Shown in pieces: positions 3,272 through 31,981 of a stretch of 64,000 bases of DNA. Source of the stretch: Acanthaster planci (Eukaryota); the NCBI RefSeq assembly GCF_001949145.1, contig NW_019091356.1, positions 2,612,932-2,676,931 on the forward strand. The letters run 5' to 3'. The first letter of the stretch is position 1, and every line of letters begins with the position of its first letter. A program made the position numbers and the translations under genes. A model generated the notes under the pieces. It saw only the letters and a program-made list of their open reading frames with translations. It had not been told where the DNA came from and searched no databases.

Positions 3272-3568
3272 AGCCATGCACACAGCGCGGCTTGTAACGG
3301 TGATACCTATTTGTGCAGCTTAGAGGCACTGTTGAAGGATTTTTATCATCAGCAGGTCAGCTCTGTCGACAATGCTTTAAATAGCGTCTAAATCAGTTGC
3401 AAATGCCACCAGATTTCACAAGCCATGCACACAGCATGGCTTGTAACGGTGATACCTGTTTGTGCAGCTTAGAAGCACTGTTGAAGGAATTTTATCATCA
3501 GCAGGTCAGCTCTATCGACAATGCTTTAAATAGCATCTAAATCAGTTGCAAATGCGAGCAGATTTCAC
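3272..3568. repeat. Tandem duplication, 2 copies of a 149-bp unit
   Basis: AGCCATGCACACAGC...CAGATTTCAC starts at 3272 and at 3421, with few substitutions between copies. Confidence 0.95.
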
Positions 3569-4528: not shown

Positions 4529-7500
4529 ATGTCGCTGATAATGAAGATCCAGCAGCTGCAGGGCCCAGCCATACAGCAGATGCAGCTGCTGTACCAGCAG
4601 AACCGGTTCCCCCTTGAGGTCCGCTACTACTGCGCACCGTGGATCGAGGCCCAGCAGTGGTGGGTTCAGCTTCCATGAGCAATACCTCATTTACAAAATA
4701 ACAAGGAAAACAGCATTTTTGCTTATTTGGTTGGGGCCGTCTTCAAAAGTCTTTCAACTTATCCCCAGAGGGTTCTGTCTGTAGAAGAGGAAGGAGAGAC
4801 CCATATCAAGGAGTAGGTGATGAAAAAAATCACTTATAGTTTTAGATTTGGGAGGAAACTCCATACAAACATTCGGGAGGGAGGGAAGGAGGATGAACCC
4901 CACAGACTCTGGTAGGGACTGGAAACTTTGATCCAGTTGCCGGGATTTCAAACCCGGGCAAAAGGGCGAGGAAAGAACTGTGGCGTCAACTCGACTTGTA
5001 CTTTTCTCTTGCAGGGGGAACATTGACGTGGACAGCCCCAGCAGCGAGCCGGCCGCCACCATCCTGCTACAGCAGCTGGTGCAGCAGATCAACCAGAAGG
5101 CGGAGGCGCTGACGGGAGAAGATAAGTTCTTCCTCCGCATGAAGCTGAGCAACTTTGCCACCGAGCTCTATGTGAGTGTCAGCACTCGGCTCTTTACCTT
5201 TGCTGTAGTCGAGTCCCACGCAAGTCCTTTTCCTATTCACACTCACGAGTCCTTCCACAAGAGGAACACGGTCAGTAGTGATAAAAGAAGGCTTGTCAAA
5301 ATCCATAGGAAAACCCCGTGACGTCGCTAAAGACTACATGGCTTATGATGGACTAAAAGGTGTAAAGGACGACACGACAGGATTACCATGTATTCTTAGA
5401 CTCTTTCCTGTTCACAAACATTGCCTACCGTTTGGTGCAGGGGTCAAAATGTGGAGAATGTTGACCCTTAGTTGGCAAGGGCTTTTGCCTCAAAATTCGT
5501 TCAGTTCGAAGAAGGGAGGTATTTTCATTAAGCACTTATAAATAGTATTTGTTGTCGTTTTAAGAGTTGTGCACTGTTTCGTTTAAGACTTTGTGAATCA
5601 CTTGTTTGCTTTTGCATTGATGGCCTGCCAACCATTGGTAAGCAAAGCTATGACTGAGATAAAGTAGGAGAAACGAGAATCTGAAGTTGTTTTTTTTTTG
5701 AGCAGGCTGGCAAGATAAAACTAATGTACAGTTTGTAGGTTTTCTACATCTCACTAGTCTGTTTTGGTTGCTGCAGGAGACATACGGCAATGACTCGCTC
5801 AAGTTTGTAAGGGTTGTCCGTCATTGTCTTGAGAAGGAACAGAGGCTGGTGGACCAGGACACAGTGAGTATAAACATTTTCTGCTCGGAAATGTTACAGT
5901 TGGCTTCCAGAGAGGAAAGAAATTGCTGTGCGGCCACAAAAGCTTGGCTTGAGAAAGTTGCACGACCATCGGTTATGCATACCGTAAATTATGGCCTTAC
6001 AAGTAGCGTGATTTTTGCCGGTGTCTTGATGTTGGACCTGTGCCCAGCAAGTGTTCTGAGTTTCCTTTGCATTTTTTTTGAAGGTTTTGTCTGTCACTTC
6101 CTTTCACTGACCTCAACTTCCAAAAAAAAAACCCCAGTGCCGCGTATAATTTTCCAATATGTCTGTTTTTTTTTTTGTTCAGAATGGCTTGCAGGACAGC
6201 TTGGAGCAGGTCATGCCCGTGTCTGATGCACACAATGAGATTGAAAGCACACTGCAGAACCTGAAGTACAAAACTCAGGTGAGTTTGTCTGACTTGATTT
6301 ATGGATTGGTCGCCAAAGCATCACTGTCACATACACGTGCATGTACGCCATTTCACCAGATTTGTCTTTGTTTCAGATTTAGACATCCAAAGGATGTTGG
6401 TTTTGTTTCATATCACAGAAGTGTTGTTGCTTACCAATTTTAAAGCATAGCGACAGGTGTTTCCAGGAAACAAGACCGATGTTCAAACTCGTTAACATTT
6501 GGAGAACATTATAATTTTTAGGTCATCATGGACTACACATCCCCACCAGGAAATTTGTGGACATGGTTGAATTTACTATTTAGAAGGGACCTGATAATCA
6601 GCAATTACCTTCATTGGTATTCATCCTGGCCTTGTAGTTTTAACAGAGTGCTAAAGTTGCAGCTGGATTTCATAGATGCTTAATTTTTTGGGGGGGTCTG
6701 GTCTCGTGAACTTGCATTCATGTGTTTGGTGTACCCCTTCTGGTCACTATTACGCCCCTATGGTTTATGCAAATATTGTGTCCCCATAATGCCGATGTTA
6801 TTACATGGGTATTGAACTGTCAAAATCTCTGGACTTAAAAAGGTAAAAAATGTCCGTTTGTGCTCAGACCCATAAGTGTCTTGAAACCAAGTATGCTTTT
6901 CGATCATAATTTAGTCAGTTACCTTAAGGATGGCTGCAAATGTGGGACTGCACCTTTAAGAGAGTAATGTTGCAGTGAAACTTAAGCAGAGGAAATTGTG
7001 AAATATATTTAGGTCAGGGGTTACATTTTTTTGACAGAGTGTGAACAACAGATGTTGCCCATACAGAGTATTGGACATGCTTCTGTGAGCTGGGGGGGGT
7101 TGGGAAACGTGTGATAAATCACCCTCTTTATGACTGCCAAAATATTCATAATATCCAGTACTCTGCTAGGAACAGTGTGAAATGACATAATCTGGGATGA
7201 TATATGCGGTGCTGTACAATTCTTTTCACGTTACTTTGACTATTGTGTTGCCGGTTGACAAGTTTTCTTTTTATCCCTTCAGAGTGTGAAAGAAAGAGAC
7301 CGTGTCTTGTAATCCATGTACAACCTTTAGTGACTACACATAGGTTATTTTCTGGCTTCTTGTGCGCATTGCGCAGGGCAGCGGGCCAAATTGTAAGGTT
7401 ACATGTGAAGCACTAAGCCCACTCCTGGCTCCCGGTCAGATATTACTGTAACCACAGCTTGCAAGTATAGTTCAGTTTACTCAATTAATTGATGGGCATA

Positions 7501-10500
7501 TTGATCGATTATTCCATTTCGTTGTTTTATTAAGTTAATTAAAGAATAACTTTGTGACAAGAGAGACCTTTCTTCAGATGGTGACAGAGCATGGCGAAAA
7601 GTTCCTCAAACCCAACATTTGGAAAAAAATCTCAAGAAAGGAATTTCGGCCTTTAAAACACGAAGAAAGGTCATAGTTGAAAAGTGGAGGTTGATGAAGT
7701 GACTTGTAAAGGTGCATTAGCAGAAGGACCACCCTCACCCCCAAAAAATCCACAAGATGGACTGCTTGCTTCTGAGTTCTTCATTGTCGATTGAATCCAG
7801 AGTAAAAAACAGAGAACAAAAGAAAACTCAGTCACATGATCAGTCGGAAAGTGAATAATAACCCCCCAAAAAACACCCCCCCCCTAAAAAGAAAAACTTG
7901 CAGGCCTTCACAGCTGTATCTAGCTATGGAAGCTCGCTAATATATGTGAGCTTGTTCAAAGGAGTGGACCAGCTGTGATTTCAAGCCAGTGTAGCTTCCA
8001 CCGTTCCTGGCATGCCTATTATCACACGGCCCGGAGCCACGAGAATTCCCTTCCATTCAAGCAGCCGGGTCTCAAATTTAGGAGAAAAAAAAAAGCCTAT
8101 AAAATAACCCACGCAAACACTACCAGCTTTTTCCAGATACGGTTTAATAGATGCTACCCCCGCAAGTTTTTTTTTTAAATTGAAAATGCTTTTGCGTAAA
8201 GCAGCGGCTTGTTTTGTCATCAATTCACCATTCCAGGAACTAACCAACCGTTGAATGTCAATGATAATTTGATTTGTTCTTTTCTCTCTCTTTCTCTTTC
8301 TCTCTCTCTCTCTCTCTCTTTTTTTTGCCTCCATCAGGCCCAAGAGAAATTTCTTGGTGACATGCAACAGAAGCAGGAACTGTTTGCCGTCCAGTTGCAG
8401 GAAAGGAGGTGTATGTTGGAAAGTAAGCTCTCGCCCTGAAATTTATGGCCCGTGCCAGTGGGAATTTTCATTTCTTGTTACAGCCTGCTGCAGAGTGGTA
8501 TGTGGCAGGACCTATCCCACCTTTCTGCTTGGAAGCCTCTGTTGTGCTTCAAAAGTGCCATTAAGGCCCTTCCACAGCTGTGAAATAAAAAAAAAGGCTG
8601 TCACCTTGTCAATTCTTTTTTGAGTTTGTCAGGGATGTTTTTTTTTTCATTGCTGAAAATGTGTTGCTTCCATATGCCTGATGTACTTGGCGTTAATGCC
8701 TGTATAGACATATATAATAGTTCTCTTTTCAAATTGTAAGCTTAGAAATACATCTCACAGGAACAGTTTTGATGTTATGTTTACTGGCTGACTGGCTGCT
8801 TCTCGGAAAAGCACTTTTTTGGGTTTTGCTAAGTGTGTTGGTAACTCTCGGGGCTGGGCACGACGTCCCTTGCCTGCTGATGTGTTTGAAGTTTACCGCC
8901 CCCCGACCTTTGACCCATTTGCAGATACGTTGGCTTCGCTTCAGCAGCAGTACCCCCAGCAGGACGACCCCAACAGGAGGGCGGAGTTTGCCCGCTTCAG
9001 TCAGAAGAAGCTGGAACTGAACTCGCTGGTCCAGAATGAAGCCCAACAGCTCATGGGTTTGAGAATGGTAAGGCCACGCACAAAAAAGTTACGTTTCCTC
9101 TTTCGTGAAAAAGAGGACGGGGAAAACATTTTTTTGTGTTGGTGCGAAAATTTGTGGCCAAAAATATCAGGGTGAAGTGTTTTTTGCACTTTGTAAAAAA
9201 TAAACTTCCCAAAAATGTCCTTTTGTGTCTAAATTCATCTTATTGTCAGGTTGTTTTGTTACTTCTAGTTGGTTGGTGCCTCTTTGGTTATTGTGATAAT
9301 GAGTAGTTCTATATTTACGAGCAAAACTGTAATATCCTAGGAAGAAATATCAATGGTACACTGATTTGTGTAACAAAACATTCTTGATTATTTTTTTATC
9401 TCTTGCTAGCCAAAAAGTTCTTTTCTTTGACGAATCATGTTGTTTATTAGACTGTGGCTGTAAGCCAGTGAGCAACCTTGTCTCAGAAATCTTTTTTTCA
9501 GTGAGCAAAGTTGACTTTGAACAGTAATCATACAAAATGAACAGTGTTTTCTCTTTGACATCCCACTAACAGTGCCCGCAATTGTCCTCAATAGCTTCAA
9601 CAGTTTTCAATGTTTAAACAAGTGCACTTTTCAATAAATTTGACCCCGAAAGGATGTCAGATAGTTTTCAAATGTAGACGAGGAATAAAGTTGCGTAGAA
9701 AGTCAGTCTGTGAAAAATTCGTAAAATTCTCTGACTCTATACTATTAATATTCATTTTGCTCCCTCATCCCATCTTCTCCCGTGCCCTGTCCTTTCCCTT
9801 TTGCCTCAGCAACTGGCCAAAATGCACCAGGAGACCTTCATGATGCTCAGCAACGTGCAGAGCAAGGTCCTGGGCGATGAGCTGAAGATCTGGAAGCGGC
9901 AGCAGCAGCTGGCCGGCATCGGAGGCTCACCGGAGGGGTCCCTGGATGTCCTACAGTCCTGGTGGGTGCCGCCTTCCAAGACCCTTTCGTAATCTTAGGG
10001 ACTTGGAAATAGAGACTCGGCATCAGCGCTTGAGGCAGCACCGTCAGTGTTTTGAACCGCGAGTCAGAGAATTGTACAAGTCTATATACTGCTGCCGATT
10101 TAGAGATTGTTGTTCTTGTGTGCTCTCTGTTGCGACAGGTGTGAAGCCCTGGCTGAGGTCACATGGCAGAACCGGCAGCAGCTGCAGCGGATTGAGATGC
10201 TCAAGCAGCAGGTGCCCATGAACGCACCGGCCCAGGACGTGCCGGACCTCAGCAACAACTTCACGGGCCTGCTGTCGGCCCTGGTCAGCTCCACCTTCGT
10301 CATTGAGAAGCAGCCGCCCCAGGTCTTGAAGAAGGAGACAAGATTCTCGGCCGCCATCAGGTATGAAGGCGTGCGATGAACGTGTTTCCACAAGAGTGAT
10401 AGATTAATTGCCAGCAGTCTCCTGCTTCGACATAGGATCTCTTTGGCCTTTTTGTCTACCCCTGCAAGAATGTATAGCATCTCAACCTTATCTTAAAAAA

Positions 10501-13500
10501 TGCCACGCGCCGCAACCCAGTAGTCGGCACCTGTTCTGTCTGTCTATCTCAGTGGACTCTGTTTGGACTGTCTCTTCAGTGTAATTTTTCTTTCTCCTCG
10601 TTAAGATTGCTGGTAGGCGGCAAGCTGAACGTTCACATGAACCCGCCCCAAGTCAAAGCCACAATTATCAGGTAAGACAAAATACCTCCCCCTTACCAGA
10701 CAACCCTTTTGCCTTCATACAGCCGTGACACAAAAGTGTCACTTTGGAAAAAAAAATCACTGTTTGAGCTCAAACGGCAGTTTTTGTAATAGAAAGATAC
10801 CTGTGGCCAGAAAGCACTGGGTAACTCCACCCAGCGACGTGCTCAAGATGCTTATACATTTGATTTCGTGGAAAGATTTCCATACCGAGACATCACGAGA
10901 CACCCTTTGCACAAACCATTTGAGACAGGTCTGACAAAAGTGGGTTCCTCATCATTGCTTCAATTTTTCCCCACTGAATCTGACCTTTTATTGTCTTCTG
11001 ATGGCCGACGAAACTGAGGGGAAATGTTGGTGATGTGCTTGAGTGTGGAATTCTTTCTTATCAGTGAGGCACAGGCGAAGGATATGCTCCACAACGAAAG
11101 TGCCAACTTTAACGAGACCAGCGGGGACATCATCAACAACTCGGGCGTTCTGGAGTACCACAAGGATTCCGGAGTCCTAAACGTCACCTTCAGAAACATG
11201 GTAAGAAAATTTGTCGTTTATATGCGCAATACCCGAATTGTTTATATGTGTTGGTTTGTGTTGCCCAAATATATCAAGTCACTGTTGACTTGATCTTACA
11301 TGCAGGTCGTCAGGGGAAATACGTTGAGGTTCCGTTTAGACATTTATAGTATTAATTTTGTTACACATTAGCATGTGATGTTAAAGCAAAAATAGTTTGA
11401 TATGTGATTTCCAGGTGGTTTTTAGATTTATTGTATTGTATTGCCCTTTTGTTCTCCAGTCCCTGAAGAAAATTAGAAGGGCTGACAGAAGAGGACAGGA
11501 GGTGAGTAGTCTGGTCACCAGACCAAAAGGTTCTGACTGTTTAGGAGAATCTTGCGATGCAGTAGCCACCACTGTCACCAGGCCCAAAGAAAATTCATTC
11601 CTTTTCAGAAAAATGTCTTGAATTTTGGAGACATTTGTCAAACTCCTTTTAGGTTGAATTTCAGTTGTCATCATAAAGGTTTGTAAATAGGCACAACACG
11701 TGAATCAACCTTTTCCCATCCAAGAATAATCCATTTTTGTAGTGGACTATTTTGGTTGCCGTGGTTACCTGACCTAACATCCAGGATGGGAGGACTGTAG
11801 GGCAGGGAACCAGACTAGGAGTGGGGACCAACAAGACAGATTTACAAACCAAATATAGAAGAAGAGTGATTGAAGGGAACCAATGCAGTGATCCCTCTGA
11901 AAAATTCTCTGACAATAGTGGGGCATTTTTTTTTCTTCATATTTTTGTATATCCACAAAAAAGACATTTTGAGAGTGTCATAGTTGGTGTCTTGGGTTTG
12001 AGATGTTGAAATTGTGTCGGGGGAGGAGTTTAATATTACCAAAAAAATGGACTGCGGAAAAATTGAAACGATGCGTTTCTATCCAAACCTGTGCAGGCTT
12101 ACCCAAACTGAGCACTTTTTTGCCCATCTGTTTTGGTTGTCCAATCCTCCAGTTTGTGACGGAAGAGAAGTTCACGTTACTGTTCCGGTCCAATTTCTCG
12201 GTGGCCAGCGGTGAATTGATGTTTCAAGTCAGAGTAAGTAGAGCAGAGGATGGGAGTCCCCCCTCCCCCCGTCAGAAATGGAATGAACCTGACATCAAAG
12301 CTTGTTATGAAATACACATTCAACCTGTGGTCGGTGTCGGGTGTCGGGTGGCGGTGGCGGTTATTTAAAATGATTTGAATATAATTTTCATTTCAAAATG
12401 ACTGGCCTCTTGACTGGTCCCGTGATGTTGGCTGCAGTGATCAACTGCAAATATGGTCTCAACATGAAAGTGTTCTCAACTTATGCTACCTTTACCTTGT
12501 TTTTATAATTGTTATGAAACTGTCGCGCATCCTCACGTTTATGTTTCAAGATCATTGAAACTGTCAGTGTTTTCTAAAAGGGACTTTTAAAAAACTATAT
12601 ATTGCTTGATTTCTGTTATCCCAACTCTATGGGTATTTTTGCACTCAAATCTTCCCCCAAACTTGTGCTGTATTCTGAGAGCAATGACATATTTATATTG
12701 AGCATCAGTACTTGGGCGTTTGATCCCAAATCTATCAAAATCCCACAGAATCATTCATTTGGTATTTAGTCAGAACTGGGCAGTTACGTGTAAGGCTAAT
12801 GTAACTTTTTTTTTCCATGTGATGTATTATGAATGCAGCTTGGTCAATACTGTGTATAACTTAATTGAACTTTTTGTTTGGTTGGTTTTTGTTTCCAATG
12901 TATCGTTGGTTTTTGGATGGGATCTAACTGGATTTGTATTTTCAACAGATTTTTGTCTGCTCTTCTTTCCTAACTCGATCGCAAACTTAACCACGATCAC
13001 GTGGTCTGTTTGGAGGAAAAAGTTGTTTCCAGTAACTTGACTGACAATAAAATTTGGCTGTATACGAACTGGCAGTTTATTGAAGTCTAATTTTTAAAAT
13101 TCATTTGATGAAAACATACTCGGAAACAAAGTAATTCTACAATTAAGATTTCCCTCTTATTGGAGCAGATTCATTAGTAAGTACTTTCGTTTAAGCATAA
13201 GAACACTAGAACCACGTAGAAATGTTTGAAAGCCATTCTCAGTTATTCCTGCCCATTCAGCAAGCTTTGAAATCATTTCTGAGCGGATGAGGGCAACCAA
13301 GGTAAAGTTTCTTGCTCTTGCTTGGGACAGCAAACGTATTGATCCCTGTGAGGGTTTAAAAAACACTCGTATTCAGACACCAGTCAAGACATTTTGGACC
13401 CTTTTTTGGGCCAGTGTTACCGGAAACACATTTTTTTTTTTCTTCTTTGATCTGTGCTTGTCCGCTGCACTGTGCAGCAGGTGAAACTACGACGCTCGGA

Positions 13501-16500
13501 GGGAAAACTAAAATAACAGGAATTTCTGGTTCAGTCAGAAAAGGAAACCAGTCGGATATGCTAGCACTCCTCATTGCAAACTTGTAGAGACATTTGTTTG
13601 CATTGCAGGTTTTTTTTTTCACAAGAATGCAAGTGGCATTCAAACCATGCAATTTGCTTTACGCTTTCTTTTTTTTTGCTTGTTACCTTTGGGAAGAAAA
13701 AAAGCAACAGTTAATTTCATGCTTTCCATATCCCATTGCTCATTCCTTTACCATTCATCGCGTCAGTGAAGAAAAATCACTGGCGCTTTATAGGAAAAAA
13801 CCTTTCATTGCTGCAGGTCATTTTATTAAACTTCTCAAGAAAGAAACTCTAACGTTTTGGATTATTTGAAGGGAAGGCTGCCACTTTCACATGGGTTTGA
13901 AAGCCAACATGAATTTGAACGTTTCATGTCGTATCAAACACTTGCATCGCCAATTCAACTGAAACATCAAATTGGCTTCATTCTCACATTTTTCTGAAGC
14001 ACCAACTGGCCCTGACATGTTTTTTTTCTCCAAATTTCTAATTCACCCTTTACAGAAAAGAAAATAAAAAAAAAAAAATCAAAAGTCTTTCTCTCTCATT
14101 TCTGCTAGTGTGTTGTTTGTCCCCCGTTTTCCACTCTTTGATTTTTTTTGCATTCTAGACCCTTTCGCTGCCTGTAGTTGTGGTGTCGCATGGTAACCAA
14201 GAATGCAATGCTTTAGCAACCATTCTCTGGGATAATGCTTTTGGTGACTGCTCATCAGTAAGTTTTTTTTTTCCGGCCGTCCCGGCCCAGTGTTGGACAG
14301 CGAAGTGTCTGAGAGCAGGGCAGGCCGTGGGATGGTCAAAGACGGTAACAAACCCTTGCATGGCTTCATGCTAACAGTTTGCTTTGGACAGTGTGGTGTT
14401 TGCTTGCTTGCCAGCTAAATCGTTGTTCATGCTTAACCAATTAAAATGGCTATCCGCATTCTTGCCAAAAAAATCTTCCCCCAAAACTTCTCCAAAAAAA
14501 AAATAAAAAAAGATGAAGAAATGTACCTTTTATTTCTCCTATTCTACCGATTCTGAAATGTCATTTTAATTCATTTTCAGCCAATTGACACCGTATTAAA
14601 AACTGAATAACCAGTAACCGAAAAAATCAGCCAAAGGTCAATCCGTGCTTGTTCCTGCCCACATTTCATGGACAGTCCGTTGTCGTTAACACTGGGTCTT
14701 TTTTTTGTTCTTAGTCACTAGCTTGTGATGTTATAACGGGGCTCTGCTGCCCCTGGTTGTTTATCCAACAGACCATGTCCCTGCCGGTCGTGGTGATTGT
14801 CCACGGTAACCAAGAAGCCAACGCATTGGCCACGGTCCTGTGGGACTATGCCTTTGCCGAGCCTGTAAGTTTGTCGTTTGATCGTTAAACGAAAAAAAAA
14901 ATGACATAACAAGGTCACGTCCGTCCCCCTGCTTCTCCCCTTCCAACCTGCTAGTCTGCATCAGGGGGTCGGCCTGTTCACGGGCTTCATTCTAAGCTTT
15001 AAGACCACTAGACTAGCTGCTCAAGAAATCTTCCAGATCAGAGAGAGATTTTTTTCCCATCTGTGGTGGAGAAAAAATTGTCCTAAGCGCTACCAGACTC
15101 GTACTTCAGATAGTTCATTGGTCAAGTCAGAAATTTTTCTGCTAACTGGAGAGGTACGAGGAATTATAGTGGGTCAAAACTAAATAAATGGACTGATATA
15201 TTTTAGAGGTGGTGACTGTGTTTACTTACATTATTGATTCTGTTGCAGATAGCTAACCTTTCTCCGGATTTAAATTTTTTTTCCTGACATGACAGGGTAG
15301 GATACCATTTGCCGTCCCTGACAAGGTGCCGTGGCCGGAAATGGCCCAGGCCCTCAACTCCAAATTCATGGCCGTCAATGGTCGTAGTTTGTCCAACGAG
15401 AACATGCAGTACCTGGCCATGAAGGCATTCAGTGGTAAGACTTAGAATACGTTGTTTTGGGGAGTCCTGTGCTGATGCAGTATGCCTTATTTACAAGGCT
15501 GCCATTTTTTGATTATGATCCTGTATCTATCCTGTCCAGTACAATCTGTTCGATGGGTGGTGCCAGACTATTTTGAGTACCAAGCCTCACTTTCATTTTT
15601 TTCTTAAATGTGGCCCAAACATAAAGATATAGTTGACCAGAAATTTTAAATTACTCATCAGCATAAATGACATTCATTTGTAATGACTTTTTTTTGTCTC
15701 TTTCATTTGTATTTCCTGGTTCCTAAAATAAAAAAGTTAACATTGTTTTGAGGCTGACTTGGGAATAGAACCTAGTTATGAGATTGTGAGGTATTTTTAA
15801 ATAGCTTACGAGGAAAAAATGTCATTCTGGGACCCAGGCCGTGTAACTTGATAAGCCCAGTTCTTGCGTGTGATTTCTTGGGACTTTCCCAGAGCCAGGA
15901 TGTGTGACTCCATATGGTGAAATTTTAGAGCTTTGCTAAAATCATTCAGGTTTTGCTGTACTTGCTAGCATTTTGTACCATTGTGAGATTTGCGTCACAT
16001 GTCCAGTGTGGCAGGTGTTCAGAGTCGATGAGGTGGTTTCACGTTTCCATTTTACAGGTCAGAACGTACAGACTGATGACTACAACAGCATGTACATCAG
16101 CTGGAGTACATTCAACAGGGTATGTCGTTACGATGTCACACTTATCACGGTTCTTCTGCCCCGGTTGAAACTGTCATTTCTTGAAGCGATCTTCATCTGT
16201 GGTTTTCTTTGCGGAAGTCTTAATCATTCAGTGTAATCATTTCTGGAAGTGATTTTCACATGTGGTTTTCTTTGCGGAAGTCTTAATCATTCGAAGTAAT
16301 TATTAGCTTTTCAACAACTTTTTTGGGTAGGATCCCCTGCCTGGCTGCACGTTCACCTTCTGGAAGTGGTTTCACGGCGTCTTGGAGCTGACAAGGAAAT
16401 ATCTGCGCGCACCGTGGAATGAAGGGTGAGACGTCATTGATAAGTAGAAATCCAGCCTACGTGCCAGCTGCTACGTGTTTCCACAATCAATTTTTTCTGT

Positions 16501-19500
16501 ATTCGGTACACGTCTTGTGTTCTTGTGCAAGTAGACGGCACCCAAGCCCCGCCAACAATCCATCCATGAAATATTAACTGCTTCAAGCCCTGTAATAAAG
16601 TAGGTTTCTGGGGTGATCCACGGAGGAGTTTTCCCCCCAAATACGGTGGCTCATGGAGGGAGGTTGGTTTTACAGCACGAGAAATGGGAGTAGCCTGTGC
16701 TTGCTTTATCACACCTTTTCCACGGAGTCTCTTTTATTTCAGTGGTAACTGATTAATGTCAATCCAGTTAATGATGTGAACCTGTTTGCGTACAAAATCT
16801 GTTGAAAATTAACCCTAACCCTCCTCAATCCTTCACCTGTTGGAGGACTGAGGAGTGTTAGGGTTAACAAGAAGTTTCCCAAACGGACCTGTCACAGGAT
16901 GTTTGAACCCAGCTCTGTAGCGAAAGCATGTGGGAACATGCTCAACACGCACACCCATGTGCAAGTCTACACGGTATTGGTTGCTGGGGCTTTAGTTGCC
17001 ATGGTTACAGTAATTTTATTGCTGTAGGTATAGTTCGTTTGGCCATGCACATCAGGATGACAAAGAGAATGAATACCATGTGACTAGCTCTCAGCCAATC
17101 AAGTCCGTGGTTGAGAGTGAGAGGTTATATGATCTGTCATCTTGTTTCGCCATCCTGTACTGCAGGTCTATCCTGGGCTTCATCACCAAGGAGCACGCCC
17201 AAGAGCTGCTCCTGACCAAGCAGACGGGTACCTTCCTGCTGCGCTTCAGCGACTCCAAGCTGGGCGCCATCAGCATCACGTGGGTCAACGAAGACCCGAC
17301 CACAGGTCAGAGCTGCAGGCTGGAAGCTGCTGAATGCTTTTGCGGCACGGGGCCAGCAATCCAAGCCTCTCCGTCGCTCCACCCCCCCACCCTCCCCCCC
17401 CCACCATCCCCCCACCATCCCCCTACCGTCTTCCCACCATCCTCCCCACCGTCTCTCTCCCCTTCCCCTCCCCCTGTCGGTTTTAACAGCTTGTGTCAGC
17501 AAGCTTTCCAACCTTCAATACATGCACATCGAGTCCATATTTCAACTTTGAAGTGAATGCAGATAAATTTACGTAAGTCAGCAGAGATGCTGACCAACTC
17601 TCCAATCTTTCTTTTGCTTTCAGATAACTGGGGATCGAAATACTATTTCCGCACAAATATTGGGACCTTGAAAATTCTGCGCAACAGAGTGCATTCCGAA
17701 GTTGCAAAATTCTGTACTTTTTCTGAACACAGAGAAGAAGGTTGTTCCTCAAGAAGAATTTCTACCTCAGAGTTATACTTAATAGTGCGAGGAGGCATCC
17801 CAAACTTGCACTGCTCGCAATTGATGCGTTGCAAATTTGACGCCCCCTCCTTCCGTCCCTTCTCGACTTACAGGAGACAGGCAAGTGCTGAACCTGCTGC
17901 CCTTCTCCAGCGAGGATTTCCACATCCGTTCCCTTGCCGACCGCATCCACGACTTGCCCCACCTGACCAACCTCTTCCCGGACATTCCCAAGGACACGGC
18001 GTTCGGTAACTTCTACACACCAATGGACGGTGAGTTCCTCCGGCGTATTTTTCACTTAGTCTGGAATGTTTTCCTTGTCTCCAGCTCTCAAAAATCATGG
18101 AGAGGTCCCCCCCATTTTATAATTGGCTCAAGAAATCCCTTACAAGTGCTGTGAGTTGGTGACTAAATAAATTAACAAGGTAATTGATTTTGATTTGCCC
18201 TAGATATAACTTAAAAATATCGTTTCAAAATACACTGTAGCATTTTTCTTGCATTTTTCTTCTGTTTAAGTGGCATCACCATCTGCTTTCCAATGCCAGA
18301 CTTAATGCATAATGTAAAAATCATGGTAAATTCCAAGTTAGAAAAAGTGAGCTGTTAGATTTCTGTTCACATGTATTAAGTCTGATTAAAATCAGATACT
18401 AACTTCTTTAATAGTTCAAACTGTCCAATTCATATAATGTGCTTTTCTTGGAATTTTTTTTTTTATCTGCAGAAGTACTCCCGCAAGCTGGAGATGGATA
18501 CGTCAGTTCTGTACTGGTCAGTAAGATTCCCCAGTTGAGGTCAGTATCTTAATGGCTGAGTTACTATCTTTCTTTTTATGTCATCCCAACCGCCTTGGAA
18601 ATTCTCCAACTTTCATTTAGTTGAGTTGAGATTCGGGGATTCATGCAGTGCCCATGGCTCTGCCGTCTGTCGCAAAGAATGGATATCGTTTTGTTGTTGG
18701 CAATCACTGTATTTCACATTTTTGCAAAGACACTGTGATTTCAGTAACTTGGGCCGTGTCCGAAACGGCCTTCCAGAGCTACGGCTAGGTCTATTGTCTA
18801 CGCATCTCCGCACATCTCCATTGGAGGGAAGACCTAGACCTAGCTCTAGACAACAGATGCGGATGCAGCCTAAGGCTCCCAAACAAACTTGTATTGTGCT
18901 AGAGTGTCAATTGTTAGTGCATGAAGTCTGTAATTGGCAGAGCCAAGAAAGTCATATATCGCTGTTTTCAATTTCAACATCTTGGAAGGTCATGGAAACT
19001 TGTCCAAAACGGCAGAGGTTTTGGGAAAATTAGGGAATTTTGTTGGATCAGTTGCTCCTAGATTATTTCCTTTTGTGCAAATTAATTTTTTGTACATTTG
19101 GACTTTAGGCTTAGTCAAATTTGACCTTCCATTCAATAAAATATTTGAATACTCGGTTGCACTGAATTTCCTTTACAGTACAAATTAAATTTGTTTAGTT
19201 TTTAAAAACTTAAAGAAAATGTCTTTTTTTGGCCTTAATGTGGGTATATGTATTTTCAAGTACATGCACTTACACCTTGAAATATGCATTCTGATGAAGG
19301 TTTGTAACTAAGGATTTGAATTTCCCTCTTTTTTGAACTTCATTGATATTCATCTCTGTGTGCTCAATTTTGAAAAAAGGAGCACTGGGATATTTGACCA
19401 ACAGTTGAATATCTGGATATTGGAGTAATCAGTTTGACCCTCATGTATGCACGGTGCATTGGTGACATGTAGGCGCGGACAAACGTTTTTAATGAGCAAG

Positions 19501-22500
19501 GTTTCAGAAAGCAAGCGCACCCCCATAGACCTTGTGACCGCTGAAATATTGAACTGAATATAACAGCAATAGAATTTGGGTTCAATTTTTTTTTTTATTT
19601 AAATGATTACAGCGCTCCACCGAGCTACCCGATTGAGAATCCCGGATCTGTAGAACCAGCTTCCCCACAGCAACAGCCTCATAACAGCAGGCAAGAGTTT
19701 GTGGACTTCGGCGGGTAAGTGCAGCCTGTTGTCGGTGGGGGTGGGGGGTGGGGGTTTGGGGTAGGGGTGATGGGCAGGACGGTGCATCACGGAGGGTTTT
19801 CTTACAGAGGGGCCATTTTCAGTTTTGCAGTCGTCATCTTGCATTACATTATTCCGACATTAGGTCATCCCCTCTTCACTGTTGACCTGGGGCATCGTGC
19901 AGGACAGATGCATTTGGAATCACACAAACAGGGTTCTTGAGACGAATTTCCGAAGAGCAACCAAACTTGTTTTAGCGAAATGCGCATTCTCTACAGAGTG
20001 CTGAATACAATTTGACTGACAGCAGTGACTAGCTTTTGAAGAATCACGCAACTGTTTTTACCGTACTTGCAAACTTTCCAGCTGAAACTACATGGATATA
20101 AATGCGGCTGGAAAATGCCGAGTGCTAGTGTAAAGGGAATACTGTTCAGTGTATGGACTTTGGTTGTTTGTTCCTAATGCTCTGAGAAATGACCCTCTCT
20201 GTGGTAACCGTTCAGTGACCCTCTGTATCGTGGACTGCCCGTTTCTGTCAAATTGTTTGTTTGTGTCACCGCGGACTCTGTTCGGCAGATTAAAACAGGA
20301 GCCAGGGGAGGAATAGATTCTACTTGAGGTCCTTGCCAACTGGCGTAGATGTTATAGATACATGCCGATGGTGGGTGGAAGTAAATCTCTGTTGAGAGTG
20401 TGTGCCAACTTGATTGGGGTGGGGTGACGGGAACATTGGAATTGTCAGAAATGTATCTTAAAGCAGGGGAGTCATTGAATTGGGTGAAGTCTTTTGAAAT
20501 CATTTTGATACTCCAGCCTGGGCAGGAAATTTTAATTTTTTTCTGATTTGTCTCTGGTAACATGGGGAATGGGCAATTGCTGCAAAAATGGCCCCCCAAG
20601 TAAGTGCAGATTCGTCATTTGACTTGGGCAAAATTTGCCAAAACCTGTGTTATTGTTCCTAGATCGCTTAGTGGCTGACCACATTACGCATGTAAACAGT
20701 AAGAGTTAAAATCAAAAGTTAAGATCAGGAGTAATTTTCCACAAGATCTGATGCAGGGTTTTCATAAAGAATATTTCAGATACAAGATCTGCCCAGTGGA
20801 GTCATCATAGCAGTGTTTTCCTCTATTCTTCTTGTCATACCAAAAAGTCATTTTTCAAGTTCAGGAAACTGAAGCATCAACTCTGACTCAGCAAAAAAAG
20901 AAAAATTGGTGGCTTTTTTGAGCCTGTTTGTTACAGAAGTGATAATTACCCTCCCCATTCTTGGGCTAAACTGAGAAGTTTGCCATGCCGAATTTGCCAC
21001 AGCATTTCTGCCATGCTTTTTTGCCGTGGCCAAAAAAAAAAAGCCAAAAAAAAAGCCATGCCCTATTTGCCATGGCTTTTTTGGCATGCATTCACATTTG
21101 TCCCAAACTTGTTCTCTTCTGGCTTTTGGTGCAGCAGAACTTTCTGGTTTGTCACCAGCAGTGGGACAACTGTGTGTGCGATCAATCTCGTTGACCTTCG
21201 GTTCATGTATGAAATATCTTCCGTTCTTTTGAAGTTGGTTCTAAGTGATCACAAAACAGAATTTTTAATAAGCATGCTGCGTGCATGCCGTTGGTTTTTA
21301 AAATTAGAGAACTTAAAAAAAATTACTGTTTATGTAAATGTGGATTTTCATTTGTGGAACTCAGTGGAAACATTTTATCATACATAAAGAATGTGCACAC
21401 CCCACCTACAGTAACAAAAGAAAAGGAAGAAAAAAAAGGACAGCGATAGATCATGGCTGGCAAAAAAAAAAAAAAAAGCAGCACGTTCTTGGAACTTGCT
21501 GTGAGTCCTCAGATTTCGGAGGACAGAATTTGCCAGACCTCCCCTGCCCTGGGCCGAACGCCTGCCCTGGGTTTAAGAGTCTTCGTAATTCGGTTGTCAT
21601 CAACGGCAAACATCTCGTCAGCGGTCGGGCGCTTTTGCAGTCAACAAAAGCAAGAAAAACCTCTGCATTCTTTGATCTGTATGATAAGATGGATCCATCA
21701 ATTTGAACCAAAAGTGAAAAGAGAAAACAAAAAAAAATTCAAAGCAAATTTCAATTTTTTTCCTTTTTTTTTTTGTTTGTTTCGTTTGGGATCTCTATCT
21801 CTGCTGCAGGGGAATGGACGCAGCCAGCCCCCCAAGCTAACAGGGATCTTTGCCGTTCATGCCCGATTGATTCCTTTGTAAATAACACCAACCCACCCCT
21901 CAGTCGCAACGGTCTCCGACTGTCTAAAAGGACTCTGCCTACCCCTTCTTATGTTCAAAGAGAGAGAAAGAAAGAGAGAAGGAACATGGCATGGAGTCAG
22001 GGAACCAGTTTGGATTAAGCAGGCTGATAATCCTTTCTTTGAAGTTTCGAAGAGGGGGAAGTCCATCAGGAGAGAATCTGGAAGGATTTTTTTTTTTATA
22101 TTTTATTTTTTTGGTGGTAATTTGATGGAATCAGGAGCTATGAGACTCCCTGCATCGCCAAGCTTCTTTTTTTTCCCGTACCAGTGAACTTCTCCACTTG
22201 ACTTGCCCCGTTTAAGGAGTGCGCGTCAATCCCAGCAGGAGTTTGACCCAGCCAATTTTTTAGCAAAACTGAAAAGCAATAAAGAAATGAACTTAAGGTT
22301 TCAAAAAGATGTGGGTGTTTAAAAAAAAAATAGGTGGAATCTGTTCACTGAAAAACAAGAAAAGTAGACGGAAAAACCCAAACACATAAATGGGACACTG
22401 TTGATGGCATTATTCTTGTTTCGTCTGAGAATTTGTTTTCTGTGGAAATATGTTTTTCATCGTGTAGTTTAAGAAGACATATTTTAAAAAAAGAAAAAAT

Positions 22501-25500
22501 TTGGAGAAAATCAGAATCATTGTGGTAAACCTTGTGGAGCTATGTTTTACAGCATAACCGTTTAATCTGAGTACTTGTGGTTTTCCTGAAGAATGACTGG
22601 TACGAAATTGAAACATACAGCAAAACAAAATGCAAAAAAAGTAAGTAAATAAGTACATAAATATATAAAAATAAAAAATTAAAAGACGTTGAGGCTAAGG
22701 GATGGTCAGGCTGTGTTGGCTGGCCAGAGTCAAGCAAGGGCACTCTCAACTGACAACTCCCGATTGGAGGTCGCATCTGAATGTCCTGGCTAGCTTACAA
22801 CTAGTAGTGACAAGTATGGTTAAGTGGAAACCGCAGACGTAGTGGCTGCGTCCTTACAGCTAGTCACATCCAAGACGTTTGAAAGCGTTGTAAAGTCCGG
22901 GGTGGGTTGCACCAACAGGGTCTTAAATTTGTTGCTTAAGCAGTCAGATCAATCATGGCCAACGGGCTCTCTTAGCAAGTCTTGGATAGGACAAAAAACG
23001 GAGCCTTCATAATAAGCCAGTCTTTACTTGGCCAGCTTGGAAGAATAATTCACGGGCAGGTTTGTGGAATTATTTATCTTCCATTCCATGGGCAGATATT
23101 TTATCCCAAACGTAGACCATCTAGGCTAACTCAGGCAGGCAAACCTTATCAAGATGGGCTCAACACATGGACTGCTTCTAAAAACCAACTAACTGTACAC
23201 CCTTTAAGACCAGTCAACATACACAAACGTCGTCAAGACTAGTTCTTGCAATCTATTCCTTCTGATTCAAACGTGAGAGGCAGTCTGAATTTTCTTTTCC
23301 AAAGAAAACAAAAATTATAGAAACCTTGTTAACATTTGCCATTGAGTTTCTCACTTTGACGTTTCCTTGTTTAGCTTTTGTAAGTTTTGATCTTGTGTGT
23401 ATGATGCTTATGATTTTGTATAAATGCATAAAAAAGTTTCTATACATATTAGATATTTTCCAGCTAGTGTGCTTTGAGTGCAGTAAATAAAGCCGAATAG
23501 AAAGAAAAATACATTGGCCAATTTTAAATGCTTTGAACAGAGACTCTCTGGCTAGAGCATTAATAAATGTACCAGTTTTCCTACTTCTTTTTCAACAGAT
23601 TGATAAAATAACCTAGAACTTTGCCAACTTTATTAATGCTATTTTACTCCAGCAAAATGCAACACATGGTGTCATGGCATTTTGATCGATTCGGGAATGT
23701 TAATCACTTTTTTTTTCCATTTTTTTTTCTGCGGCACGTGACGTGTTCATCTTTTAAAGAGAATTGGCTTTTAATTTACAACATAGTGTTGACTTTTCAA
23801 GAAAGATTCTGGCTTTGTCAACATGGCTGTCAAGTCGTCCTGCCTTGGCCAACCAGACATTTTTGCCACATTTCAGACATTTTGGCACTTATTTGAGGAC
23901 TAGTTGCTTTGACAAATACACTATACTTTTCCAACCAAACTAAACCAACAAAGTTTCTTTTTTGATGAATTTGAAAGAATGTTTCTATTCGTTGCTTAGA
24001 AAGATTTAGAAGAACATTCTGAGTTGAAACTTTTTTTTTTTTTTATAATTTTGTCATTAGTGGAGTGTAAACAAGGGATTCAAAATCAAACAAACTCACA
24101 GGAAACATTAAAGGTCATTATTTCCAAGAGAGAGAGTGCAGTTTTTGAATGCCCAAAAACTGTACCCAAATTTCAAAGATCGACTCACAGAATTTAGCAA
24201 TTTATCAGAGTTCTGTAAATGTTGGGAAAAGAATTACTTCAATTTTTTTTTTAAATCTCTCACATGGTGCTCAGAGACGGAAGACATTTTCTTTAAACTA
24301 GACTCGTAGATTAGTGAGCAGTGACTAAAATGTATGTACTAGCATGATGCCATCTTTATACAGAACAGAAGGTAAAACTATTGTAAATAGATCTCTTTGC
24401 AAAAAAAAGTCATTTTTTATTTTTTAATGTTTAATTGCTCTTACTGTAGGAAAAGATGAGGTTTTAAGTGTGGCATTCCATTGTTTAAAAGATAAAACAA
24501 ATTTTGAGTGAGCTTCTGGGCAGATTTTTCTGTTTTTGTTCAACCAGGGGAAAAATATGCATTTTTGCTGAGATTTGGACTTTTTGTTTCGCTTGTGCAC
24601 TGTGTTGTGAAATTGTCAAAAATCCTATTAATGTAAACTCATTAAATTCTTACAAGAGCAAACAATGTGAATCGCGAAGTTGGTACTGTGTATACTTTGG
24701 TTTTATTTCTTGATGCCATGATTGAATGTTCTTTACGTTTTCAAGTGAATTTCATCCATTTCCTCTTTCATTATTGAACTTGTTCTAATAGAAATTCCAA
24801 TAAAATGAGCAAAAATATCCCATCAGTAGAAACGTTTTTGCAGATGGTGAGCCAAAACTCATGAAGCTCATAAAGCAAAAAAAAAAAAATAAAAAAATAA
24901 AAAAAAAAAACCCACATAATTATGATTTGAATGAACAAACTTAGAAACTGAGTAACATGACCGGGTGTCTTTCACACTAAATTGTGAGAGACAGTGCAAT
25001 TGGTGTTGCACTGAACAAGTCTTGCCGAGTGCTGCATTGCTTGAGGAATTCCTTAATCAGAACTGTTCCATGCTCCATTAGACAATACATGTACATGGGA
25101 CTGAAGATAATCCCAGATTCCAGTAACAGCGAAGTGGAAAGCTGGATCCAAATTTCCAGACTTGTTACTTCGGCTTTTTATTTCTAAGGCAGGGCGGAGC
25201 TAAAGAATTACAATGGGGAGGGCTTTACAGTCATTTGCTACATTTCATGTACTTATGCACCCCCTAAGTTTATGGGAATAGTAGCTTTCAAGACAAGGGA
25301 TCGCAAATCAGAAAAAAAGGGCCCATGCAGAAAGTGGGAGGGTATGACAAGTGGGCGTGTTATGTGATATTATTTTGGCATGAGTTGGGACACCCTCTCT
25401 TGTCCAGTGATTTGACAATGTAAGGTTCATTTGTCTAAGCCTTCTGATATGCCTTACACTAGAGATATGAGGTAATTAATAGAGTTTATGAATCGGTGGT

Positions 25501-26044
25501 GGAGCCATCAAAGCTCATGGGATCTTGGTCTAGTTTCATGGAGTAGGTAAGCAGAAAAGGCTGCTTTTCATGGCCACTTCTTGTTGAGCAGAGATCGGCT
25601 GTGAACCAGTCATGTGCAGTATTACATTGCATGACATTTCAGCCGGTAAACCCTTTTCTGTGCTAAGCGAGTGGTTTCTGTGCTGAACCCAACCCAACTG
25701 TGGCAACTCTGTCAAATTTTGCATTTACAGTCGCTGTCGGAATGCGTTACTCAAAAGGCTCATGATAAACTGTCTAAGTTGGGGAACCATGCCAAAACTT
25801 TAAACTACGCTTTTCCTGATCAGAACGATAGACGTTGCATTACTTTTGCCACCCATAGGATTGCGTGCCTATCCCAAAATAGAATCGTAACGTTCCGCTA
25901 TTTCTTGTTTTGTTTCTCTGACAAAGCATTTCAGACTTTGATGATATGCTGGAGGATCGCGAGCAAGAAGAAACACAACTGGCTCCAGACATCAACGAAC
26001 TCCTCAAGGACTTTGACACGTTCGACATGGATCCTATTCTTTAA
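4529..26044 (+). CDS. STAT5: STAT transcription factor, STAT5/6-like (about 789 aa using exon 13b and the distal terminal exon)
   Basis: Phase-consistent GT-AG exons: 4529-4659, 5015-5171, 5777-5863, 6183-6278, 8338-8422, 8925-9067, 9810-9961, 10139-10360, 10606-10671, 11065-11200, 11460-11501, 12153-12233, [14159-14257 or 14772-14864], 15296-15434, 16058-16119, 16331-16425, 17166-17305, 17874-18029, 18473-18539, 19613-19714, 25927-26044. Kozak context gccgccATG. Motifs: [18 protein letters not shown] (N-domain); [37 protein letters not shown] and VTEEKF (DNA-binding domain); [10 protein letters not shown] (SH2); DGYV (phosphotyrosine, TAC 18499-18501). The symbol denotes closest similarity, not one-to-one orthology. 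Confidence 0.95.
8283..8326 (+). repeat. (CT)n microsatellite forming the polypyrimidine tract of STAT exon 5
   Basis: tctctctc...ttttttt run ending 11 nt before the exon start at 8338. Confidence 0.9.
14159..14257 (+). CDS. STAT5: STAT exon 13a (duplicated DBD exon), [33 protein letters not shown]
   Basis: Acceptor ttttttttgcattctag and donor gtaagt; 99 nt, phase 0/0, no stop. 22 of the first 28 aa are identical to exon 13b. Confidence 0.85.
14772..14864 (+). CDS. STAT5: STAT exon 13b (STAT5-type DBD exon), [31 protein letters not shown]
   Basis: Acceptor tttatccaacag and donor gtaagt; 93 nt, phase 0/0. Closely matches vertebrate STAT5 [29 protein letters not shown]. Confidence 0.95.
16198..16292. 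repeat. Direct repeat, 32 bp x2, period 63
   Basis: TGTGGTTTTCTTTGCGGAAGTCTTAATCATTC occurs at 16198 and at 16261. Confidence 0.9.
16809..16867. mobile_element. Miniature palindromic element with piggyBac-like ends (TTAA-CCCT...AGGG-TTAA)
   Basis: The 26-nt arms TTAACCCTAACCCTCCTCAATCCTTC and GGAGGACTGAGGAGTGTTAGGGTTAA differ at 3 positions and enclose a 7-nt loop. Confidence 0.5.
17380..17474. repeat. C-rich low-complexity tract in STAT intron 17
   Basis: Many C4-C8 runs. Confidence 0.8.
20289..20316 (+). CDS. Candidate short alternative STAT terminal exon, (G)LKQEPGEE*
   Basis: Acceptor ...ctctgttcggcag. Read in the phase of the exon 20 donor it gives 8 further codons and TAG. The pyrimidine tract is weak. 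Confidence 0.3.
21810..21840 (+). CDS. Candidate short alternative STAT terminal exon, (G)GMDAASPPS*
   Basis: Long T-rich tract at about 21753-21790, then ctctgctgcag. About 3 kb of UTR-like sequence follows, with AATAAA at 22278, 23486 and 24799. Confidence 0.45.
25927..26044 (+). CDS. STAT5: Distal STAT terminal exon encoding an acidic transactivation domain, (G)[38 protein letters not shown]
   Basis: Pyrimidine tract plus aag acceptor, in phase with exon 20. The acidic/hydrophobic pattern (DINELLKD) resembles STAT5 HVEELLRR, and total length then matches STAT5. AATAAA at 29997 and 30080. Confidence 0.8.
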
Positions 26045-31684: not shown

Positions 31685-31981
31685 TACTTGTTGCTACTTC
31701 TTTTTATCAAAAGCGATAAAGTTTTGTATGTCACAAAAAATGGAAGTTGAGCAGTTTTTGAGAAATGTCAGGGTTCAATCTGTGTTGCTGATTGAGGTGC
31801 AAGATCGATTTGCATGCATGGTCTTGAGGGTAGCTAGCTATTAAGTTCAAAGTGTATTGCAGACAACTTACATGCAGGTAAGTAAAGAAAATATTGATTG
31901 ATGGGATTGATGAGATTCATAATCTACTGCAGTATTGCCTCATTTTCTGTTTTATTTGGGCTAAGATTCACTTGAAGAAGC

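What the first reader, a model, noticed from the sequence alone, without database searches (positions are those of the whole stretch)
14159..14864. Tandemly duplicated, probably mutually exclusive exons in the STAT DNA-recognition segment
Seen: two homologous exons (99 and 93 nt) lie between constitutive exons 12 and 14. Both have AG/GTAAGT sites, phase 0/0 and no stops. 22 of the first 28 aa are identical, yet 13 of those 22 codons differ synonymously, which points to an old duplication with selection on both copies. Known: this segment holds the base-contacting residue (STAT1 N460, STAT6 H415, the latter linked to N3 vs N4 GAS spacer preference). Copy 13b reads VIVHGNQ (STAT5/6 type). Copy 13a reads VVSHGNQ, with Ser before the contact residue as in STAT1/3 VISN, plus two Cys and a 2-aa longer linker junction. 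Inference: including both copies would duplicate a core strand and helix, so they are probably mutually exclusive. One invertebrate STAT gene could then make two DBD variants by splicing. I am not aware of this being described, but cannot check the literature.
Basis: partly seen in the sequence, partly recalled or inferred. Interest (0 to 1): 0.92.

Follow-up and report, generated by a model that had tools for sequence, protein, structure and literature searches.

The report
Splice-swapped DNA-reading exon in echinoderm STAT
This starfish STAT signalling gene carries two versions of the exon that reads DNA, its RNA uses one or the other, and the same pair is kept in sea urchins, sea cucumbers and feather stars, so one gene likely makes two transcription factors with a different grip on DNA.

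Summary
Real and conserved. The window is the STAT5-type gene of Acanthaster: it encodes 790 of 791 residues of RefSeq A. planci isoform X1 through exon 13a and 788 of 789 of X2 through 13b. RNA reads show 12>13a, 13a>14, 12>13b and 13b>14, with no listed 13a>13b or double-skip joint. Use differs by sample: 9:4 in one run, 1:102 in three others. Both forms are listed for 9 of 14 named echinoderm species in four classes. The swap changes the residue matching STAT1 S459/STAT6 V414 (thymine-methyl pocket), but the base-contacting His is the same in both, so a spacer (N3/N4) switch is not supported. Ascidian STAT-b has alternative exons at the same position that swap His for Asn at that base contact, in the opposite order. 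A 14-nt intron element and a UGCAUG are candidate regulators. RefSeq lists the isoforms, but ten literature searches found no description. The effect on DNA binding is untested.

The parts
4529..26041 (+). STAT5-type gene, 21 coding exons; N-domain, coiled coil, DNA-binding, linker and SH2 domains
   Evidence: Exact 7-mer mapping of A. planci RefSeq X1/X2/X3; PDB best hit STAT5A E 4e-195, best STAT1 hit 7e-70; Foldseek
12153..12233 (+). Constitutive exon 12
14159..14257 (+). Alternative exon 13a (Ser-His loop), minor form overall, major in one run
   Evidence: 10 junction reads in 2 of 4 runs; RefSeq X1/X3
14772..14864 (+). Alternative exon 13b (Val-His loop, STAT5/6 type), the usual form
   Evidence: 106 junction reads in 4 of 4 runs and 111 in 4 of 4 further runs; RefSeq X2
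15296..15433 (+). Constitutive exon 14
12647..12660 (+). Copy 1 of a 14-nt pyrimidine/C-rich intron element (AAATCTTCCCCCAA), upstream of 13a; candidate splicing regulator
   Evidence: Two exact copies in 64 kb, both in this cluster; function inferred
14470..14484 (+). Copy 2 of the element, in the 13a-13b intron; also present in the a-b intron of locus L001
   Evidence: Longest shared word, 15 nt; 0 of 500 shuffles reach 15; function inferred
14357..14362 (+). TGCATG (RBFOX-type motif) about 100 nt downstream of the 13a donor; candidate enhancer of 13a
   Evidence: Only copy in the three introns of the cluster (2870 nt); aligned with a TGCATG in L001; weak
21811..21837 (+). Alternative last coding exon (short C-terminus, RefSeq X3)
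25928..26041 (+). Alternative last coding exon (long acidic C-terminus, RefSeq X1/X2)

Best explanation
Exons 13a and 13b are an old tandem duplicate of the STAT exon that carries the DNA-recognition loop and the following helix, and transcripts splice in one or the other, so the gene makes two full-length STAT5-type proteins that likely differ in how tightly or selectively they bind the TTC half-site rather than in spacer length. Shown: the exons, the four junctions, the lack of listed joined or skipped forms, the sample-dependent ratio, and conservation in four echinoderm classes. Established for vertebrate STATs: the swapped residue (Ser or Val before His) lines the thymine-methyl pocket. 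Inferred: 13b is the default; 13a is released in some tissue or state, probably through RNA-binding proteins acting at the twin 14-nt elements that flank it and at the downstream UGCAUG; the two proteins then tune GAS-site affinity and target choice.
For: Junctions, per run X12/X15/X16/X19: 12233>14159 0/0/4/0; 14257>15296 0/1/5/0; 12233>14772 8/21/2/32; 14864>15296 3/18/2/20; no row for 14257>14772 or 12233>15296. The ratio differs by run: Fisher p 4e-5 on distinct read starts of the upstream junction only, and 7e-4 against the run from the same study. Isoform pairs differ only in this exon, by 5-7 residues, in S. purpuratus, Lytechinus, Diadema setosum, Apostichopus and Anneissia; both types also occur in Acanthaster, Patiria and Asterias amurensis, and in tandem in a Holothuria gene model. 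Genomic locus L001 has a then b with intact splice sites; its a copy matches 13a at 27 of 28 residues while 12 of those codons differ synonymously. Four positions (9, 10, 16, 22) differ between a and b in every species with both. Position 10 corresponds to STAT1 S459/STAT6 V414, and S459A or S459R make STAT1 nearly non-specific (PMC5737217). AlphaFold places the exon on strand 472-475 and helix 478-494; a natural two-copy gene model leaves 35 residues at pLDDT under 50.
Against: No binding data exist. The base-contacting His and the pocket Gln are the same in both copies, and the other fixed differences are conservative. STAT1-N460H (Ser-His, like 13a) binds much like wild type (PMC5737217). 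Evidence for 13a rests on 10 reads, 9 of them from one run; joints under 3 reads are not listed, so rare joined or skipped forms cannot be excluded. The joint table hid 14 rows and says nothing about 13a. Run X16 differs from the others at a SNP (12173), so genotype rather than tissue could explain its ratio. Listed isoforms show only b in Amphiura (5 of 5), Antedon (2 of 2), Asterias rubens (3 of 3) and Diadema antillarum (1 of 1). The intron elements rest on one cross-species comparison found after the fact.
Confidence: 0.6

Rival explanations
1. The exons are mutually exclusive and conserved, but both proteins read the same DNA; selection acts on something else in this segment, such as the Cys at position 16, packing of the helix against the linker domain, dimer recycling or partner binding.
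For: His and Gln contacts are unchanged. Three of the four fixed differences (positions 9, 16, 22) are not among the specificity residues named in PMC5737217. Ser-His in STAT1 keeps wild-type-like specificity. A change at the neighbouring STAT6 D419 raises protein level and activity by an unclear route (PMC10499697).
Against: The one non-conservative fixed change falls on a residue of the thymine-methyl pocket. The parallel ascidian exon changes the base-contact residue itself, which points to selection on DNA reading.
Confidence: 0.25
2. The swap is a spacer switch: one form prefers TTC-N3-GAA and the other TTC-N4-GAA, as STAT1 and STAT6 do.
For: The exon holds the residue tied to spacing, and 13a has the STAT1/3-type Ser. 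PMC5359187 reports that STAT1-N460H gains N4 binding.
Against: Both copies keep His. PMC5737217 found no spacing change for N460H and says other parts of the protein are needed. PMC5359187 suggests dimer angle also matters, and that lies outside this exon.
Confidence: 0.12
3. 13a is a decaying or neutrally kept duplicate that is spliced in only as noise.
For: 13a is nearly absent in 3 of 4 runs, and four species list only b.
Against: 13a is the major form in run X16. Its core is unchanged across crinoid, echinoid, holothuroid and asteroid proteins apart from one substitution in Asterias amurensis. Synonymous sites have diverged while the protein has not.
Confidence: 0.03

Closest known systems
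FOXP1 exons 18/18b (FOXP1-ES)
   Same: Mutually exclusive exons in a DNA-binding domain that keep the frame and change recognition residues (PMC11701043, passages).
   Different: Forkhead family, vertebrate, and the motif change was measured. Here the family is STAT, the main base contact is unchanged in echinoderms, and no binding data exist.
TCF3/E2A exons 18a/18b (E12/E47)
   Same: Similar-sequence, same-size mutually exclusive exons in the DNA-binding region, regulated by cell state (PMC6120717, passages).
   Different: bHLH family; the main effect is on dimer preference.
Vertebrate STAT5/STAT6 versus STAT1/STAT3 paralogues
   Same: The same loop differs between paralogues: V414-H415 in STAT6, S459-N460 in STAT1 (PMC5737217).
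   Different: Vertebrates hold the variants in separate genes. Here one gene offers Val-His or Ser-His by splicing; ascidian STAT-b offers Val-His or Val-Asn.
RefSeq isoforms of echinoderm STAT5-like genes (A. planci XP_022086633 / XP_022086658 and others)
   Same: They are these two proteins.
   Different: They are numbered isoform records; no paper found discusses them.
Ascidian STAT-b alternative exons (Ciona intestinalis X1/X3 versus X2/X4/X5; Clavelina X1/X3 versus X2)
   Same: Alternative homologous exons at the same position, 31 and 33 residues, in tandem in genomic loci L041 and L043.
   Different: They swap His for Asn at the base contact; the canonical copy comes first; the intron between them is 53 nt in L041. 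Not checked with reads. A shared or separate origin is unresolved.

Membership tests
STAT transcription factors, STAT5/6 type | N-domain, coiled coil, DNA-binding, linker and SH2 domains in order, closest to STAT5 | tested here: met
   Pfam PF02865, PF01017, PF02864, PF21354, PF00017 precomputed for P0080; PDB E 4e-195 to STAT5A; Foldseek target TM-score 0.91-0.94 to STAT5 chains
STAT transcription factors, STAT5/6 type | Activation by phosphorylation of a C-terminal tyrosine and GAS binding | not testable with these tools
   No biochemical data; a tyrosine lies in exon 18472-18537, its role is assumed from recalled knowledge
Mutually exclusive exons from tandem duplication | Adjacent homologous exons of similar length and same phase | tested here: met
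   99 and 93 nt, phase 0/0, 22 of 28 residues identical
Mutually exclusive exons from tandem duplication | Each exon joined to both flanking exons in RNA | tested here: met
   All four junctions, GT..AG,
Mutually exclusive exons from tandem duplication | No joining of the two exons and no skipping of both | tested here: met
   No such row in 4 of 4 runs (listing threshold 3 reads, 116 reads on the four junctions); one search was truncated and is not informative
Mutually exclusive exons from tandem duplication | Enforcement by frameshift/NMD, U2-U12 incompatibility or steric block (PMC5740500) | tested here: not met
   Both lengths divisible by 3; both donors GTAAGT; intron 514 nt with the nearest upstream AG 52 nt before the 13b acceptor. 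These are optional mechanisms, not defining ones
Mutually exclusive exons from tandem duplication | Enforcement by competing RNA pairing (docking and selector) | tested here: inconclusive
   Most segment pairs fold no better than shuffles; two beat all 8 shuffles clearly and one by 0.1 kcal/mol. The best partner of the 14-nt element lies upstream of exon 12, not where a docking site is expected
Splicing switches of DNA-binding specificity (FOXP1-ES, TCF3 type) | The alternative exons change a DNA-contacting residue | tested here: met
   Position 10 = STAT1 S459/STAT6 V414 by ungapped register with 1yvl 450-477 and PMC5737217; the base-contact His is unchanged
Splicing switches of DNA-binding specificity (FOXP1-ES, TCF3 type) | The isoforms prefer different DNA motifs | not testable with these tools
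   Needs a binding assay
Splicing switches of DNA-binding specificity (FOXP1-ES, TCF3 type) | Exon choice regulated by cell type or state | tested here: inconclusive
   Ratio differs strongly between runs, but tissue labels are not given and genotype is not excluded

The most novel reading that the evidence does not exclude
Invertebrate deuterostomes diversify a STAT5-type gene by splicing in alternative DNA-recognition loops that borrow STAT1/3-type residues: Ser at the S459 position in echinoderms and Asn at the N460 position in ascidians. One gene would then give STAT5/6-like and STAT1/3-like DNA readers, a splicing route, reached twice or inherited once, to the specificity split that vertebrates made by gene duplication.
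Probability: 0.3. Interest if true: 0.88.

Novelty: new variant of a known kind. Interest (0 to 1): 0.7.

Why it matters
The purple sea urchin has a single STAT gene (PMC3670131), and how one STAT serves many signals is open. A conserved, sample-dependent swap of the recognition loop gives a concrete route that gene-level expression studies miss, because the isoforms differ by 5-7 residues in most species. What sets GAS half-site and spacer preference is disputed even for STAT1-N460H (PMC5737217 against PMC5359187). The echinoderm Val-His/Ser-His pair and the ascidian Val-His/Val-Asn pair are natural variants on otherwise identical proteins, so they make that question directly testable.

Tried and rejected
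No whole genome is held for this window, so a second STAT gene or a retrocopy elsewhere was not checked. The wider second lay was swamped by intronic repeats and hid 14 joint rows, so it gives no count for 13a. Frameshift/NMD, U12 and steric enforcement were rejected for this locus. A docking/selector RNA structure was not found: 9 segment pairs were tried against 8 shuffles each, and no partner for the 14-nt element lies between exon 12 and its first copy. A 31-column tree of 36 exon peptides could not decide between one and two origins: a+b p-AU 0.45, tunicate H+N p-AU 0.48, and a plus tunicate N grouped at 86/64, possibly by long branches. 'Ser-His is unique to echinoderms' was rejected: 8 ISH and 2 TSH among 141 new unnamed representatives. 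Two-stretch hits P0204, P0205, P0214 and P0267 are not clean exon pairs. My first guess of amphioxus was wrong. The STAT6-DNA structure paper PMC5135355 is not held. Four look-ups of earlier scan findings returned nothing. No complex prediction was run.

Full report
1. Observation. The two exons are at the stated places: 13a at 14159-14257 (33 residues) and 13b at 14772-14864 (31 residues), each with an AG acceptor, a GTAAGT donor, phase 0 and no stop. Of the first 28 residues 22 are identical, and 13 of those 22 codons differ synonymously. Both match the same stretch of STAT5A, STAT5B and STAT6 in PDB. No third copy lies in the window.

2. The gene. Exact 7-mer mapping places 790 of 791 residues of Acanthaster planci RefSeq isoform X1 on 21 exons using 13a, and 788 of 789 of X2 on the same exons using 13b; Patiria proteins map only 547-548 residues. 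The window is therefore the Acanthaster STAT5-type gene, and both forms are already in RefSeq as numbered isoforms. The protein is closest to STAT5A (E 4e-195; best STAT1 hit 7e-70), and its model matches STAT5 chains best.

3. Splicing in RNA. Raw reads of 8 of the 9 offered RNA runs were laid. In one search (runs X12, X15, X16, X19; three studies) the joints were: 12233>14159 0, 0, 4, 0; 14257>15296 0, 1, 5, 0; 12233>14772 8, 21, 2, 32; 14864>15296 3, 18, 2, 20. No row appeared for 14257>14772 or 12233>15296; rows need 3 reads from 2 starts in one run. X16 uses 13a 9:4, the other three 1:102; on distinct starts of the upstream junction alone p = 4e-5, and against X19 of the same study p = 7e-4. 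Tissue labels are not given, and X16 carries a different allele at 12173 in 9 of 11 reads, so genotype is not excluded. (X20, X17, X18, X14) adds 51 and 60 reads for the two 13b joints and confirms most neighbouring joints, but it hid 14 rows and cannot be used for 13a.

4. Conservation. Among 14 named echinoderm species in the fetched proteins, 9 show both exon types: Acanthaster planci, Patiria miniata, Asterias amurensis, Strongylocentrotus purpuratus, the Lytechinus species of XP_041459744/5, Diadema setosum, Apostichopus japonicus, Holothuria leucospilota (both in one gene model) and the crinoid Anneissia japonica. Four show only b (Amphiura 5 of 5 isoforms, Antedon 2 of 2, Asterias rubens 3 of 3, Diadema antillarum 1 of 1) and one only a (Lytechinus pictus). 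Cluster listings are not genome searches, so a missing type is not a loss. In the five pairs aligned end to end, all 5-7 differences lie in this exon. The order a then b is the same in the S. purpuratus and Holothuria two-copy models and in genomic locus L001. Window 13a and L001 a share 27 of 28 residues with 12 synonymous codon differences; within each locus a and b share only 22. The duplication thus predates the crinoid split, and both copies are under purifying selection. Three hemichordates list only an Ile-Val-His type, and named lophotrochozoans have one type per protein, mostly Thr-Val-His. Of 80 metagenome loci, 76 hold one copy, 3 hold two and 1 gave no motif match; many are spliced or short, but four genomic Thr-Val-His loci with over 3 kb on both sides are single.

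5. What the swap changes. Four positions differ between a and b in all species with both: 9 (Val/Ile), 10 (Ser/Val), 16 (Cys/Ser or Ala) and 22 (Ile/Val). The ungapped match of a homologous exon to STAT1 450-477 makes position 10 = S459, 11 = N460 and 14 = Q463. PMC5737217 (passages and section 14) states that N460/H415 makes the only direct base contact, that S459/V414 and Q463/Q418 form a pocket for a thymine methyl, and that S459A and S459R leave STAT1 nearly non-specific. So the swap hits a specificity residue, but His and Gln are unchanged. STAT1-N460H has the Ser-His pair of 13a; that paper found wild-type-like specificity and N3 preference, whereas the commentary PMC5359187 (part 1 of 2) reports a shift to N4. 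I therefore expect both forms to bind GAS sites and to differ in degree (inference). The second Cys and the two extra residues are asteroid-only, and Tyr26 of 13b is seen only in Acanthaster and Patiria. AlphaFold puts the exon on a short strand, the loop and a long helix, with residues 498-500 at pLDDT under 50. The old two-copy S. purpuratus model leaves residues 471-505 under 50, in line with room for one copy only, though just one alignment row covers both copies.

6. How exclusivity may be kept. The three simple mechanisms listed in PMC5740500 (passages) do not apply: both lengths are multiples of 3, both donors are GTAAGT, and the intron is 514 nt. A 14-nt word, AAATCTTCCCCCAA, occurs exactly twice in 64 kb, once in each intron flanking 13a. 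It is also the longest word shared with the a-b intron of L001 (15 nt; 0 of 500 shuffles reach 15; among 248 window segments only poly-T runs and these two sites reach 14) and is absent from the other 79 loci. Its best pairing partner lies upstream of exon 12, which does not fit a docking site, so a protein-binding role is more likely (inference). One TGCATG lies 100 nt downstream of 13a and aligns with one in L001; RBFOX bound downstream usually promotes inclusion and PTB binds CU-rich motifs to promote skipping (PMC11701043, passages). This model rests on a single cross-species comparison.

7. A parallel in ascidians. STAT-b isoforms of Ciona intestinalis (2 of 6 listed) and Clavelina lepadiformis (2 of 4) replace the His exon by a 33-residue exon with Asn at the N460 position; the listed Styela, C. 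savignyi and Oikopleura proteins printed show only the His type or no motif. Its Asn-Val-Ser-Gln loop is the STAT1 loop as I recall it; only N460 and Q463 come from a call. Loci L041 and L043 and protein P0003 hold both copies in tandem, His copy first, 53 nt apart in L041. The opposite order and the single type in hemichordates suggest a separate duplication, but the tree does not decide. I did not test the ascidian case with reads.

8. Literature. Ten full-text searches listed no paper on alternative exons in the STAT DNA-binding domain of echinoderms or ascidians; I saw listings and abstract starts for most hits. Term searches inside three STAT-evolution papers (PMC3670131, PMC3670263, PMC13203501; passages) and a sea urchin splicing study (PMC5703972; passages, no occurrence of STAT in the main text) found no mention. 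PMC10499697 and PMC6120717 were seen as passages. The library lacks most subscription journals, and no supplements were opened; exon tables such as those of PMC5703972 could list this event.

9. Verdict. The feature is real, spliced mutually exclusively and conserved across four echinoderm classes. The kind is known from FOXP1 and TCF3; in STATs it appears undescribed beyond isoform records. Its effect on DNA binding is the open step.

Noticed in passing
L041:1524-1768; L043:428-672; proteins P0349, P0351, P0353, P0354, P0003: Ascidian STAT-b has tandem alternative exons at the same position that swap His for Asn at the base-contacting residue; the 53-nt intron in L041 could block double inclusion sterically. 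This may be the stronger case for a specificity switch.
   Followed up: partly
window 21811-21837 and 25928-26041: Alternative last exons give a short or a long acidic C-terminus; short and long forms are also listed for other echinoderms and three hemichordates, recalling STAT alpha/beta forms.
   Followed up: partly
window 16805-16870, 18750-18870 and 15555-15690: Short intronic repeats draw many RNA reads that run on into unrelated sequence (thousands at the first two): dispersed repeat families.
   Followed up: no
window 14772-14864, codon 26: Exon 13b has Tyr where nearly all fetched STAT5-type proteins have Asn; seen only in Acanthaster and Patiria among echinoderms.
   Followed up: partly
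proteins P0217, P0218, P0221, P0223, P0273, P0293, P0299, P0328, P0240, P0318: Unnamed STAT-like proteins that also have Ser before His, so the pairing exists outside echinoderm 13a.
   Followed up: no
window 13974-13991, 14362-14379, 14983-15000: Three similar 18-nt words starting GGCTTCAT, one in each intron of the cluster; two lie 105 and 119 nt behind the 13a and 13b donors.
   Followed up: no
window 31976-32371: Open frame with a short-chain dehydrogenase-like nucleotide-binding motif (family name recalled, translation); a neighbouring gene.
   Followed up: no
window about 3270-3560: Two similar copies of a stretch of about 150 nt upstream of the first coding exon (seen).
   Followed up: no
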